Source: an uncultured Candidatus Saccharibacteria bacterium (GTDB taxonomy: Bacteria; Patescibacteriota; Minisyncoccia; JBAYJV01). Taken from it: a DNA stretch of 59,450 nt. Of this stretch, positions 7,220 to 38,589 are shown in pieces. A model generated the notes under the pieces. It searched no databases and was not told the DNA's origin. It worked only from the letters and a program-made list of their open reading frames with translations. The position numbers and the translations under genes are program-made. The first letter of the stretch is position 1; each line of letters opens with the position of its first letter. The stretch is from the NCBI GenBank assembly GCA_964577395.1, contig CAZNYQ010000004.1:1-59450 (forward strand), read 5' to 3'.

Positions 7220-7763
7220 TTTAAAAACAATTTTAATTTTTGGCTTAGGTAATCCAGGAGAAAAACATCACAATAGCCGTCATAATATAGGAAGAGAAAT
7301 AATTAATTTTTTGGTCAAAGAATTTAATACTTCTTTTGAACACAAAAAAAAGCTTAAAAGTTTCTTAGCCGAGGTAAACCAAAATTCTCACAAAATTCTT
7401 TTAGCAAAGACCGAAATGTTTATGAATGAAAGCGGCTATGCTGTCCGGCTTATTAAGGATTATTACAATATTTCTAATCAAAACATTTGGATTATTCAAG
7501 ATGATGTAGATATTGCTTTTGGAAATATCAAGACTTCTTTTGAAAGAAATGCAGCTGGCCATCACGGCATAGAATCAATTATTAAGCATTTAGGTAATAA
7601 TGAATTCCATCGTATCAGGATAGGAATTTGGAACCGACCTTTCTCAGAAAAGAAAAAAGAAATTACTCAAAGTTACGTTATGCAAAAATTTATCCCGGAA
7701 GAATTAGACAAAATATTAGATATAAAAAAAGAAGTAGCTCAAATAATTAAAGCTACTTTTTAA
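7212..7763 (+). CDS. pth: Peptidyl-tRNA hydrolase
   Basis: GLGNPG, RHNIG, FMNESG, DDVD, RIRIGI; start taken at ATG 7212. Confidence 0.94.
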   Translation: MNDLKTILIFGLGNPGEKHHNSRHNIGREIINFLVKEFNTSFEHKKKLKSFLAEVNQNSHKILLAKTEMFMNESGYAVRLIKDYYNISNQNIWIIQDDVDIAFGNIKTSFERNAAGHHGIESIIKHLGNNEFHRIRIGIWNRPFSEKKKEITQSYVMQKFIPEELDKILDIKKEVAQIIKATF

Positions 7764-7909
7764 AAATTCCTTACCTTGTCCTACCTACGAGCGTTAGGAA
7801 TATATGCAGTTGCATCTATCCCTAAACCTTACCGCTGATTACAGAGGTAGGAGGGATCACTCTGCAAATAGCACTCATAGGCAAGACAAGAAGAGGAATT
7901 TTTACTACT
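7762..7909 (-). ncRNA. Candidate 6S-RNA-like rod-shaped RNA
   Basis: Perfect promoter upstream; AAAAAUUCCU/AGGAAUUUUU plus a 19-bp helix CUUGUCUUGCCUAUGAGUG/CGCUCGUAGGUAGGACAAG, an internal bubble and an apical stem. Confidence 0.6.
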
Positions 7910-7915
7910 TTGTAT

Positions 7916-7944
7916 ATTATAATCTTTTAAGTTAAGTTTGTCAA
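7916..7944 (-). promoter_or_regulatory. Consensus sigma70 promoter
   Basis: TTGACA (7944-7939), 17-nt spacer, TATAAT (7921-7916). Confidence 0.8.
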
Positions 7945-36955: not shown

Positions 36956-37672
36956 TTAATTCTCTAATTGTTTGCCTATAAGAATTTTGAATGTCTCAAA
37001 ATCATGAGCCCCTATTAAAGGTTCTTGATTAATAAGAAAAGCAGGTGTGCCAAAATTATCTATTTTAACTTCTTGAATTGATTGGTTGATTTCTTCAAAA
37101 TCTTTAACAATTGTTTCGGCAAATTTTTCACTTTCAAGACATTCATTAAAAATCTCTGTATCAGCTTCTAATTCTTTTGCATATCCTTTAAGATGTTCTA
37201 GTTGAATTTTAGTAGCATTTTCAAAAATCTTCATGTAATAATCATAATAATCTAGGCCTTGATCATAAAAACATAAAGCTGCTTCAGCTACCTTTTTAGC
37301 TTCCGGATGATAAGGGAGAGGAAAATCTCTGAAAACAATTTTCGCTTTTCCTTTATCAACATATTTTTCTTTCAGCTGGGGCATAACTTGAAGAGCAAAA
37401 TCTTTACAAAAAGGACATTGATAATCATTAATAGCAATAATTGTTACAGGTGCGTCTTTGTCTCCTATAAAAGGATAATTATCATCCTCAAGTTCAAAAT
37501 TTTGAATATCTTTTTCTTGAGGAGGCAAAGGCAAGCTATTGATTAAATTAGCTTCTTCTTTTTCGGCTTGATAATTGCCAAGATATAAGACACCCAATCC
37601 TAAAAGAACACCCAAGACAATTAGCATGACAGCTATAATATATTTATTTTTTTCTTTCATGTTATTTTTCAT
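36956..37672 (-). CDS. DsbA-like thioredoxin-fold protein
   Basis: N-terminal TM, DYQCPFC, FRDFPL, GTPAF. Confidence 0.9.
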   Translation of the reverse strand: MKNNMKEKNKYIIAVMLIVLGVLLGLGVLYLGNYQAEKEEANLINSLPLPPQEKDIQNFELEDDNYPFIGDKDAPVTIIAINDYQCPFCKDFALQVMPQLKEKYVDKGKAKIVFRDFPLPYHPEAKKVAEAALCFYDQGLDYYDYYMKIFENATKIQLEHLKGYAKELEADTEIFNECLESEKFAETIVKDFEEINQSIQEVKIDNFGTPAFLINQEPLIGAHDFETFKILIGKQLEN

Positions 37673-37714
37673 TTTATCAAAAATTTATTAAAAGGCAAAA
37701 ATGCTTAAAAGGGG

Positions 37715-37742
37715 TTGACAAGAAATCTTTTTGCCCTATAAT
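37715..37742 (+). promoter_or_regulatory. Consensus sigma70 promoter
   Basis: TTGACA (37715-20), 16-nt spacer, TATAAT (37737-42). Confidence 0.72.
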
Positions 37743-37748
37743 GTAAAG

Positions 37749-37900
37749 TACACTTCTTACCAGCTTTTTTATCTAGATGGATCTTCTCGTACCTTCCATC
37801 ACGGATAAGAGAGGAGAGACTGTTCTTATCTCCACTAGATTTGGACTTCCTCCTCACAAGAAGCGTCCAGGGGAGCTACTTAGGTAGTTCCCCGTTTTCT
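37749..37900 (+). ncRNA. Candidate small RNA: three-way junction with complementary loops, then a hairpin and terminator
   Basis: P1 37771-76/37835-40, P2 37777-81/37795-99, P3 37804-10/37824-30, P4 37843-49/37860-68, terminator 37870-37900; no same-strand gene follows. Confidence 0.6.
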
Positions 37901-37958
37901 TATTTACAAAAAACGGCTTAAAACCGTTTTTTAAATTTATATATATATTTACAACAAT

Positions 37959-37987
37959 AAAAAAGGCTTGTCTCTAGACAAGCCTTT
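37959..37987 (-). terminator. Terminator of the 37999..38589 gene
   Basis: AAAGGCTTGTCT/AGACAAGCCTTT with a T tract on the minus strand. Confidence 0.7.
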
Positions 37988-37998
37988 ATCTAGTAATG

Positions 37999-38589
37999 TT
38001 AAAGAACAAGTTCAATAAACAATACAAAAGGAGCTATCGTAAAGATTATGAAACTTATAAGAGTTCCTGATACAAAAATATTAATTCTATCATTTAACCA
38101 TGAGGGATTATCTACAGAATAGCTTCTCAAGTCTAAAAAATTTTCTCCCGAGATATCTTCAAAACAGAACAACAATGCCCCACACTGTACAAATGTTGTT
38201 ACAGAAAATACTGCTATGCTTGTTAGTAAAGTCAAGGTAAGACTATTGAAGGGTTGAATCTTGAAGAATGTAACTGCCCCCACAAGAGCACCAAATAAAA
38301 CTCCCATCACCAGCTTTGCTGCATCTTGAGGCTCTTCATCAAAATCATTTTTTTGGTAAAGCAGATAAAACCAACCAAGAAAACCATTGCAAATTCCTAT
38401 TAACAGAAGAATTGTTCCTATAACAATTTTCTCTGTTAAGCTATTCAAATTAGTAAATTCAATCATAAGAGATAGAAATAACGATGCAAATACAAAATAT
38501 AAATTTACCTTCTGAATAATTTTTGAAAAAACTCTTGAAGCTTTGCTAATTTCCTGTCTTCTTTGTGCCTCATTTGGATATGTTTCCAT
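37999..38589 (-). CDS. Hypothetical multi-TM protein
   Basis: About 5 TM helices; TTGACA-17-TAGTAT promoter (38646-38618); AAGGAGG SD; own terminator. Confidence 0.72.
   Translation of the reverse strand: METYPNEAQRRQEISKASRVFSKIIQKVNLYFVFASLFLSLMIEFTNLNSLTEKIVIGTILLLIGICNGFLGWFYLLYQKNDFDEEPQDAAKLVMGVLFGALVGAVTFFKIQPFNSLTLTLLTSIAVFSVTTFVQCGALLFCFEDISGENFLDLRSYSVDNPSWLNDRINIFVSGTLISFIIFTIAPFVLFIELVL

What the first reader, a model, noticed from the sequence alone, without database searches (positions are those of the whole stretch)
37715..37900. Standalone kissing-loop RNA with a switchable GAGGAG loop
Seen: a consensus promoter, then a three-way junction whose two 13-nt loops are complementary over 7 bp (UCUUCUC 37782-88 with GAGGAGA 37811-17). 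A further hairpin displays CUCCUC (37850-55), which could pair with the same GAGGAG loop instead. A terminator follows and no same-strand gene lies downstream. Established: P1-P2-P3 with a loop-loop contact is the architecture of purine riboswitches and the SRP Alu domain, but I do not see their consensus residues, and a riboswitch needs a downstream gene. Inference: a new trans-acting RNA; its CUCCUC hairpin is antisense to the RBS of the convergent membrane-protein gene, as in type I toxin-antitoxin or sRNA control.
Basis: partly seen in the sequence, partly recalled or inferred. Interest (0 to 1): 0.68.

Follow-up and report, generated by a model that had tools for sequence, protein, structure and literature searches.

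The report
New small RNA gene beside dsbA
This is very likely a real, separately transcribed small non-coding RNA gene. It is kept next to the dsbA gene in one small group of ultra-small (CPR/Patescibacteria) bacteria and is absent from Rfam 15, but the "kissing-loop switch" and the toxin-antitoxin idea proposed for it are not supported.

Summary
The promoter (TTGACA-16-TATAAT, 12/12), the hairpins, the complementary loops, the CUCCUC motif and the terminator are all at the stated coordinates. The unit encodes an RNA of about 150 nt. It folds far better than shuffles on the + strand only (z -3.8 to -5.4, against -0.9 on the - strand).

A 7-bp loop-loop match arises in 22% of shuffles of the two loops. 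No homologue shows loop-loop complementarity.

Eight lineages carry a promoter-RNA-terminator unit at the same place, divergent from dsbA: all 4 reference species of the family, plus 4 from metagenomes. They share the promoter and the G-rich terminator. Most share a 5'/3' closing helix (AAGAAGC block), a pyrimidine motif (CCUCCU or UCCUUAC) and a hairpin loop with C-GAGA-G. No Rfam family matches.

The 196-aa neighbour is an orphan that replaced mgsA/rarA in this species only, so the RNA does not depend on it.

Best reading: a new, lineage-restricted, trans-acting sRNA with an anti-Shine-Dalgarno-like element. Its target is unknown and no expression data exist.

The parts
37715..37742 (+). Sigma-70-type promoter of the RNA gene (TTGACA, 16-nt spacer, TATAAT). 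The start site is inferred near A37750.
   Evidence: 12 of 12 consensus matches. The same TTGACA-17-TATAAT-G promoter lies at the same place in 7 related lineages.
37750..37866 (+). Structured body of the small RNA (about 117 nt), closed by a 5'/3' helix (37750-58 with 37858-66).
   Evidence: Folds at -35.2 kcal/mol, z -3.82, 0 of 200 shuffles as good. Closing-helix pair probabilities are 0.64-0.97. The 3' strand CAAGAAGCG is shared with L234, L203, L035 and L201. The reverse strand has z -0.93.
37767..37810 (+). Hairpin A: UUUUAUCU/GGAUAAGA (two U.G pairs), capped by AUGGA/UCCAU (37777-81/37795-99) with the 13-nt loop UCUUCUCGUACCU (37782-94).
   Evidence: Pair probabilities are 0.81-1.0. The AUGGA/UCCAU hairpin with a 13-nt loop matches AUGGU[UGUCUCGAGAGCC]ACCAU of L032. 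The loop is the reverse complement of AGGUACGAGAAGA.
37811..37855 (+). Hairpin B: the purine tract GAGGAG (37811-16) paired with the anti-SD-like CUCCUC (37850-55), with an inner imperfect stem.
   Evidence: Pair probabilities are 0.97-0.99. The duplex GAGGAGAG/CUUCCUCCUC is worth -9.7 kcal/mol, against -7.2 for the proposed kiss.
37870..37903 (+). Intrinsic terminator of the RNA: GGGGAGCUAC-UUAG-GUAGUUCCCC plus a U-rich tail.
   Evidence: 10-bp stem with 6 G-C pairs. One G.U pair would be A-C on the other strand. The G-rich 5' arm (GGGGAG) is shared with L234, L035 and L201. Terminator pairs show compensatory changes among homologues.
37908..37932 (.). Second, symmetrical terminator (AAAAAACGG-CUUAAAA-CCGUUUUUU). 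It is probably the old terminator of the convergent gene.
   Evidence: Found. Relatives have AAAAAACGAAGA...UCUUCG(C/U)(G/C)UUUUUUU at the same place behind mgsA.
37671..37698 (-). Candidate promoter of the divergent dsbA gene (TTGCCT-16-TAAAAT with TG), back to back with the RNA promoter.
   Evidence: Found. Relatives have TTGACA-17-TAAGAT/TAATCT in the same back-to-back arrangement (by eye).
36956..37672 (-). dsbA-family thiol-disulfide oxidoreductase gene, the invariant divergent neighbour of the RNA gene.
   Evidence: Pfam Thioredoxin_4 at 1.2e-29 and DSBA at 5e-11. Orthologues of 50-59% identity flank the RNA unit in all 8 lineages.
37999..38589 (-). Orphan 196-aa predicted membrane-protein gene, convergent with the RNA. 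It is context only and not part of the unit.
   Evidence: No Pfam family. No homologue among 5.8 billion proteins. It takes the place of mgsA/rarA of relatives. Its RBS AGGAGGAAGU is complementary to 37846-55.

Best explanation
The finding is a genuine, independently transcribed small non-coding RNA gene, about 150 nt from promoter to terminator on the + strand. It belongs to a previously uncatalogued RNA family confined to one family/order-level lineage of CPR/Patescibacteria. There it always lies back to back with the dsbA promoter.

The RNA folds into a domain closed by pairing of its 5' and 3' ends, holding two hairpins and followed directly by the terminator hairpin.

It most likely acts in trans as a base-pairing riboregulator. 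Family members display a pyrimidine-rich, anti-Shine-Dalgarno-like element (CCUCCU or UCCUUAC) and a large hairpin loop. These could pair with purine-rich ribosome-binding regions of mRNAs and block translation initiation.

In this species the pyrimidine element is masked by an internal GAGGAG tract, so it would have to be opened by competition with a target.

Shown: the gene anatomy, the strand-specific structure, the conservation and synteny, and the absence of a known family or coding potential. Inferred: transcription itself, action in trans, and the target class.
For: - Anatomy: a perfect promoter and an intrinsic terminator with no ORF between or behind them.
- Structure: strand-specific stability, z -5.4 and -3.8 on + against -0.9 on -. 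Three G.U pairs would be A-C on the other strand (by eye).
- Stability in the population: the sequence is identical in 5 independent metagenome contigs.
- Conservation: at the same site, divergent from dsbA orthologues, 7 further lineages have TTGACA-17-TATAAT-G, then 75-120 nt, then a G-rich terminator. These include all 4 reference species of the family/order.
- Structure in relatives: all 8 RNA bodies fold better than shuffles, z -1.7 to -4.7, and 5 of 8 have 0 of 200 shuffles as good.
- Shared blocks: CAAGAAGCG plus GGGGAG before the terminator (window, L234, L203, L035, L201); GAGAGC in 6 of 7 relatives (the window RNA has only GAGAG) and CGAGAGC in 5 of the 8 RNAs; CCUCC in all 8.
- Accessibility: the pyrimidine motif is 40-85% unpaired in 6 of 7 relatives.
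- Coding: no conserved peptide and no SD in front of any small ORF.
- Known families: no Rfam 15 match in the window or in 6 related loci.
- Independence from the neighbour: the RNA was kept although the convergent neighbour was swapped.
Against: - No transcript evidence exists. Only DNA runs hold the sequence and no RNA run could be listed.
- In this window's RNA the CCUCC element is fully paired, with unpaired probability 0.01.
- Target prediction gives nothing specific. An anti-SD-like motif matches hundreds of SD sites (676 GGAGG in the genome), and the ranking shows no coherent set.
- The order of motifs differs between homologues. Automated alignment aligns only the terminator, so no covariation test of the body was possible.
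- Two of the eight lineages (the window and L234) lack the C-GAGA-G loop, so no single internal motif is invariant.
Confidence: 0.45

Rival explanations
1. The RNA is a decoy or mimic of ribosomal RNA elements, or a protein sponge. It would display an rRNA-like hairpin (a C-GAGA-G tetraloop preceded by UA, as in the 23S sarcin-ricin loop) and a copy of the 16S 3' tail (ACCUCCUUA). It would titrate a factor that recognises those elements, such as a ribosome-directed nuclease toxin or another translation factor, rather than pairing with mRNAs.
For: - UACGAGAG is in the hairpin loop of L035, L038 and L200. ACGAGAG is in L201 and CGAGAG in L032.
- These 8 nt are identical to the core of this genome's own sarcin-ricin loop, GUACGAGAGGAUC.
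- L038 carries ACCUCCUUA and L200 carries ACCUCCUU.
- VapC-type toxins that cleave the sarcin-ricin loop are known (PMC7180214).
Against: - The 3' half of the sarcin-ricin motif (the G-A of the bulged-G module) is missing in all relatives.
- The loop motif is lost in L234 (AAUACAAAAC). In the window it is present only as its reverse complement.
- An 8-mer has roughly a 7% chance of matching somewhere in about 4.5 kb of rRNA (my estimate), and the match was noticed after the fact.
- No candidate partner protein is syntenic.
Confidence: 0.12
2. A three-way junction whose two loops kiss (UCUUCUC with GAGGAGA) switches to a GAGGAG:CUCCUC pairing. The freed CUCCUC hairpin represses the RBS of the adjacent 196-aa membrane-protein gene, as in type I toxin-antitoxin or local sRNA control.
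For: - The complementary segments exist.
- ACUUCCUCCU pairs perfectly with AGGAGGAAGU at the neighbour's RBS. That 10-mer is otherwise absent from the 613-kb genome.
- The GAGGAG tract does have two alternative partners.
Against: - The junction fold is 12.8 kcal/mol above the minimum-energy fold, and still about 5.6 above after crediting the kiss.
- The loop complementarity is expected in 22% of shuffles and is absent from 7 homologues.
- The neighbour is an orphan that replaced mgsA in this species only.
- Its start region ranks 14th of 888 by duplex energy.
- There is no overlap with the gene, and the protein is far too large for a type I toxin.
Confidence: 0.07
3. There is no RNA function. 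The promoter would be a by-product of the divergent dsbA promoter region, and the hairpins would serve only as terminators or insulators between convergent genes.
For: - The two -35 boxes lie back to back.
- The terminator abuts the stop codon of mgsA in L035 and L234.
- The internal sequence evolves fast.
Against: - A 12/12 promoter is kept in 8 lineages.
- The bodies are significantly structured in all 8.
- Internal motifs (CAAGAAGCG, CGAGAGC, CCUCCU) are shared far beyond chance.
- The unit was kept after loss of the convergent gene.
- A separate terminator for the convergent gene exists (37908-32).
Confidence: 0.1
4. It is a very divergent copy of a housekeeping RNA (SRP RNA or 6S RNA) that Rfam models fail to recognise in this class.
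For: - The bacterial small SRP model finds nothing in this genome or in 25 related genomes, so at least one housekeeping RNA is unaccounted for.
- The promoter is of the strength typical of stable RNA genes.
Against: - There is no GNAR tetraloop with the AGG/AGCA symmetric loop of SRP helix 8 (by eye; motif scan).
- The architecture and motif order differ between close lineages, which an essential universal RNA would not tolerate.
- The family is not detectable outside one family of the class.
- A much better 6S-like candidate lies at window 7762-7944 on the - strand.
Confidence: 0.03

Closest known systems
RsaE/RoxS and other C-rich-motif sRNAs of Firmicutes (Rfam RsaE, RF01820); stated from my own knowledge of the literature
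   Same: A self-contained promoter-to-terminator sRNA of about 100-150 nt. It is non-coding and carries pyrimidine-rich motifs complementary to Shine-Dalgarno sequences. It has a modular hairpin architecture ending in an intrinsic terminator.
   Different: - No sequence or structure match in cmscan.
- No repeated UCCC loops.
- In the window RNA the motif is sequestered in a helix.
- The phylum is different.
- Targets and any chaperone are unknown.
Anti-SD-loop small RNAs noted in other Patescibacteria by earlier agents of this scan (unchecked AI notes)
   Same: CPR host, perfect consensus promoter, terminator, CCUCC(U) element, no Rfam match, and restriction to narrow clades.
   Different: No sequence similarity to any earlier window. 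Here the CCUCC element is not an invariant apical loop, its position differs among homologues, and this genome uses strong SD sites widely.
   Same: Only a possible P1-P2-P3 drawing with complementary loops.
   Different: - No cmscan hit.
- No consensus residues.
- No downstream gene.
- The three-way junction is not the favoured fold and is not conserved.
Type I toxin-antitoxin antisense RNAs (for example Sok, RF01794)
   Same: A small RNA next to a convergent membrane-protein gene, with complementarity to its RBS.
   Different: - The RNA does not overlap the gene.
- The protein is 196 aa with several predicted membrane segments, not a peptide of under 60 aa.
- The gene is absent from all relatives that keep the RNA.
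- The only sok 'hit' is 11.4 bits, E 4.5, on the wrong strand.
[quoted passage not shown]
   Same: UAC-GAGA-G in a hairpin loop in several family members. In the window RNA, 13 nt (37780-92) are complementary to the genome's own loop GUACGAGAGGAUC, with one G.U pair.
   Different: The bulged-G half of the motif is missing and the motif is not invariant in the family. Genome-wide, 2 sites match the 13-mer with one mismatch or fewer, against about 0.7 expected, so chance is not excluded.

Membership tests
Independent bacterial sRNA gene (generic class) | Own promoter and own intrinsic terminator, with no ORF | tested here: met
   A 12/12 promoter and a 10-bp G+C-rich terminator. No conserved or SD-led ORF in 8 homologues.
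Independent bacterial sRNA gene (generic class) | Strand-specific stable structure kept in relatives | tested here: met
   z -3.8 and -5.4 on the + strand against -0.9 on the - strand. All 8 homologous bodies have z -1.7 to -4.7.
Independent bacterial sRNA gene (generic class) | Base-pair covariation in the body | tested here: inconclusive
   MAFFT and RNAalifold align only the terminator. The closing helix is conserved in sequence in 5 lineages and replaced by unrelated paired sequences in L038 and L032. There are too few sequences for a statistical test.
Independent bacterial sRNA gene (generic class) | Detected transcript | not testable with these tools
   Only DNA runs hold the sequence and no RNA run could be listed.
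Purine riboswitch (RF00167) | Match to the covariance model, and a downstream regulated gene | tested here: not met
   No hit even at E up to 10 on 451 nt. No + strand gene before 40448.
SRP RNA (RF00169; Alu domain or helix 8) | GNAR tetraloop with conserved symmetric and asymmetric loops, and a model match | tested here: not met
   No cmscan hit in the window or in the genome. The motifs are absent by eye and by regular-expression scan.
6S RNA (RF00013) | Long rod with a central bubble, and a model match | tested here: not met
   No hit. The fold is a closed multi-hairpin domain. A rod-like candidate lies elsewhere, at 7762-7944 on the - strand.
Type I toxin-antitoxin system | Small hydrophobic toxin ORF whose mRNA overlaps, or is specifically paired by, the antisense RNA, with the pair conserved together | tested here: not met
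   The neighbour is 196 aa, does not overlap the RNA, is an orphan and is absent from all 7 related loci.
RsaE/RoxS family (RF01820) | Model match, and two or more UCCC motifs in unpaired regions | tested here: not met
   No hit and no UCCC repeats. The resemblance is in presumed mode of action only.

The most novel reading that the evidence does not exclude
The family is an rRNA-element RNA. Most members display a sense copy of the sarcin-ricin-loop core (UAC-GAGA-G) and of the 16S 3' tail (ACCUCCUUA). They could act as decoys for factors that attack or read these two ribosomal sites. In this window's species the hairpin loop has been inverted, so the RNA now carries 13 nt complementary to its own 23S sarcin-ricin loop. 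It could then pair with helix 95 of nascent or mature 23S rRNA and modulate ribosome assembly or GTPase-factor binding.
Probability: 0.05. Interest if true: 0.8.

Novelty: new member of a known kind. Interest (0 to 1): 0.35.

Why it matters
CPR/Patescibacteria have tiny genomes and almost no described riboregulation. A strongly promoted, structured RNA kept at one locus through gene turnover suggests that even these 0.6-Mb genomes invest in RNA regulators. It adds one more family to a recurring class of CPR small RNAs with anti-Shine-Dalgarno-like elements. That class could be tested as a general translation-control device.

On its own this is an incremental find. The family is narrow, the target is unknown, and the more striking structural claim (a kissing-loop switch) does not hold.

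Tried and rejected
1. Known RNA families. I ran cmscan at gathering threshold on the whole window, at E up to 10 on 37600-38050, and at E up to 1 or 5 on six related loci. Nothing overlapped the RNA.

2. DNA-level homologues. BLAST against 61 related genomes found only terminator-like scraps.

3. Homologues of the 196-aa neighbour. There are none.

4. The search for related loci with a DsbA profile in metagenome and genome collections. It returned mostly distant DsbA genes (30-47% identity) without the unit. L040 is not syntenic.

5. A promoter upstream of dsbA in 26 more distant genomes of the class. None has one.

6. The pattern TTGACA..TATAAT..ACGAGAGC in 401 genomes of the class. It matched only the family members G001 and G003, plus two unrelated terminator stems.

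7. Automated alignment and consensus folding of the 8 RNAs. Only the terminator aligns.

8. Small-peptide reading. There is no conserved ORF and no SD.

9. dsbA as a pairing target. In all 8 lineages the duplex energies against the cognate dsbA start region equal those of shuffled RNAs, z -0.4 to +1.4.

10. The 196-aa gene as a specific target. It ranks 14th of 888. A first run with the full-length RNA in duplexfold gave unrealistic long-loop duplexes and was discarded.

11. SRP RNA reading. A motif scan of the genome gave no helix-8-like site in this RNA.

12. RNA-seq evidence. No runs are available.

13. Earlier notes of this scan, searched by sequence. No look-alike was found.

Full report
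**Observation**

- a TTGACA-16-TATAAT promoter at 37715-42, 12 of 12 matches;
- UCUUCUC at 37782-88 and GAGGAGA at 37811-17, which can form 7 antiparallel pairs, one of them U.G;
- CUCCUC at 37850-55;
- a 10-bp G+C-rich terminator at 37870-93 with a U-rich tail.

No + strand ORF of note follows before 40448.

The stretch is strongly structured. It folds at -54.9 kcal/mol, z -5.42, with 0 of 200 dinucleotide shuffles as good. The body without the terminator gives z -3.82. The reverse strand gives z -0.93, with 36 of 200 shuffles as good. Two U.G pairs in the UUUUAUCU/GGAUAAGA helix and one G.U in the terminator would be A-C on the other strand. The structure therefore belongs to the + strand, like the promoter and terminator.

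**The proposed fold**

The 7-bp kiss adds at most -7.2. His P1 and P3 have pair probability 0.00.

The favoured fold does three things:
- it closes the 5' and 3' ends (37750-58 with 37858-66);
- it stacks AUGGA/UCCAU and its 13-nt loop on UUUUAUCU/GGAUAAGA;
- it pairs GAGGAG (37811-16) with CUCCUC (37850-55), with probability 0.97-0.99.

One loop is all pyrimidine and the other nearly all purine. Because of this, 7 or more contiguous pairs appear in 22% of shuffles of the two loops, and in 3.5% of random loops of the RNA's composition. The complementarity is real but not remarkable.

**Known families**

- cmscan against Rfam 15 at gathering threshold finds only two tRNAs and an L10 leader in the window.
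- At E up to 10 on 451 nt, nothing meaningful overlaps the RNA on its strand.
- Six related loci give nothing either.

**Relatives**

BLAST against 61 related genomes finds no DNA homologue. Five metagenome contigs carry the identical 300 nt.

The 196-aa convergent neighbour has no Pfam family and no homologue among 5.8 billion proteins. The divergent neighbour is a DsbA-family protein with orthologues of 50-59% identity.

Around those orthologues the order CorA-CysRS-ROK-dsbA is kept. Upstream of dsbA, on the opposite strand, every lineage has TTGACA-17-TATAAT-G, then 75-120 nt, then a G-rich terminator. Beyond it lies a convergent mgsA/rarA gene.

Three of these loci are the three other reference species of the family, which is also the whole order in the reference set. 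Four more come from metagenomes (L035, L038, L203, L234).

In 26 more distant genomes of the class, the region upstream of the best DsbA match has no such promoter. A pattern search in 401 genomes found only family members plus two unrelated terminator stems.

This genome has no mgsA. The orphan gene sits where mgsA used to be, and the RNA was kept.

**What the eight RNAs share**

- All bodies fold better than shuffles, z -1.7 to -4.7.
- The window RNA shares CAAGAAGCG followed by GGGGAG with L234. It shares AGAAGC(G/A) with L203, L035 and L201, and the matching 5' strand (C/G)CUUCU with L203 and L234. It is therefore a true homologue.
- L038 and L032 have closing helices of unrelated sequence.
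- GAGAGC occurs in 6 of the 7 relatives (the window RNA has only GAGAG), CGAGAGC in 5 of the 8 RNAs and CCUCC in all 8.
- The pyrimidine motif (ACCUCCUUACC, GUCCUUAC, ACCUCCUACC, GCCUCCUGG) is 40-85% unpaired in most relatives. In the window RNA it is fully paired.
- A 5-6-bp hairpin with a 10-15-nt loop carries (UA)C-GAGA-G in L035, L201, L038, L200 and L032, and U-GAGA-G in L203. L234 has AAUACAAAAC. The window has UCUUCUCGUACCU, the reverse complement of AGGUACGAGAAGA.
- The order of motifs differs between lineages, and MAFFT with RNAalifold aligns only the terminator. A covariation test of the body was not possible.
- None of the seven relatives shows complementarity of 5 bp or more between unpaired segments. 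The kissing contact is not a family feature.
- No small ORF is conserved or SD-led.

**Function**

I tested two local targets.

- The dsbA start region shows no more complementarity to its cognate RNA than to shuffled RNAs in any of the 8 lineages.
- The 196-aa gene's RBS, AAGGAGGAAGUAUG, holds the only other AGGAGGAAGU in the genome and pairs perfectly with 37846-55. By duplex energy, however, it ranks 14th of 888 candidate start regions. The gene is also younger than the RNA.

No RNA-seq data exist.

The best-supported reading is therefore a lineage-restricted, trans-acting sRNA with an anti-SD-like element. This is inferred by analogy with C-rich-motif sRNAs of Firmicutes (my own knowledge) and with similar unchecked notes on other Patescibacteria in this scan.

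**An odd point**

UACGAGAG is the core of the 23S sarcin-ricin loop. This genome's own loop reads GUACGAGAGGAUC. Relatives carry the sense 8-mer without the 3' half of the motif. The window RNA carries a 13-nt complement, with one G.U pair.

Genome-wide, two sites match the 13-mer with one mismatch or fewer, against about 0.7 expected, and the second site is clearly fortuitous. I keep this as a low-probability, high-interest reading. VapC toxins that cut this loop are known (PMC7180214).

**Verdict**

This is a real and new small RNA family of narrow range. The anatomy is confirmed, the specific kissing-loop and type I toxin-antitoxin interpretation is not supported, and the function is unknown.

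Noticed in passing
window 7762-7944 (-): A perfect TTGACA-17-TATAAT promoter followed by about 150 nt with a long closing helix and a central bubble. It is a better 6S-like candidate than the RNA studied here, and it also contains CCCUCCUACC.
   Followed up: partly
whole genome G000 and 25 relatives (not a window coordinate): The Rfam bacterial small SRP RNA model (RF00169) finds nothing at E up to 1 in any of 26 genomes of this class, although it rings in 13 of 14 control genomes. The SRP RNA of this class is either very divergent or missed by the first-look filter.
   Followed up: partly
genome contig C3, minus strand, promoters at about 27283 and 28044 (outside the window): Two further promoter-to-terminator, ORF-less units lie 760 nt apart. 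Each shows a CCUCC element: UUACCUCCCGAG in a hairpin loop, and UUUUCCUCCUUGAG. Several such units exist in this 613-kb genome.
   Followed up: no
window 37999-38589 (-) and 37908-37932: The orphan 196-aa membrane-protein gene occupies the place of mgsA/rarA, which this genome lacks altogether. The symmetrical terminator at 37908-32 resembles the one behind mgsA in relatives and may be a relic of it.
   Followed up: partly
window 37640-37700 (-): dsbA seems to lack a Shine-Dalgarno site here and in all relatives, and its candidate -10 box overlaps the first ATG. The mRNA may be leaderless or start at the second ATG (37660). Relatives share a conserved AU-rich 5' leader (UUAGAUUUGU).
   Followed up: no
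window 37780-37792 (+): GAUCUUCUCGUAC is complementary (13 bp, one G.U) to this genome's own 23S sarcin-ricin loop, GUACGAGAGGAUC (contig C8, about 149342, -). Related RNAs carry the sense 8-mer UACGAGAG in the equivalent hairpin loop. This could reflect inversion of a hairpin loop, or chance.
   Followed up: partly
genome contig C8, last ~420 nt (outside the window): Only a 3' fragment of the 23S rRNA gene is present, at a contig end, and I found no 16S 3' end (GTCGTAACAAGG is absent). The rRNA operon is largely missing from this assembly although it is scored 100% complete.
   Followed up: no
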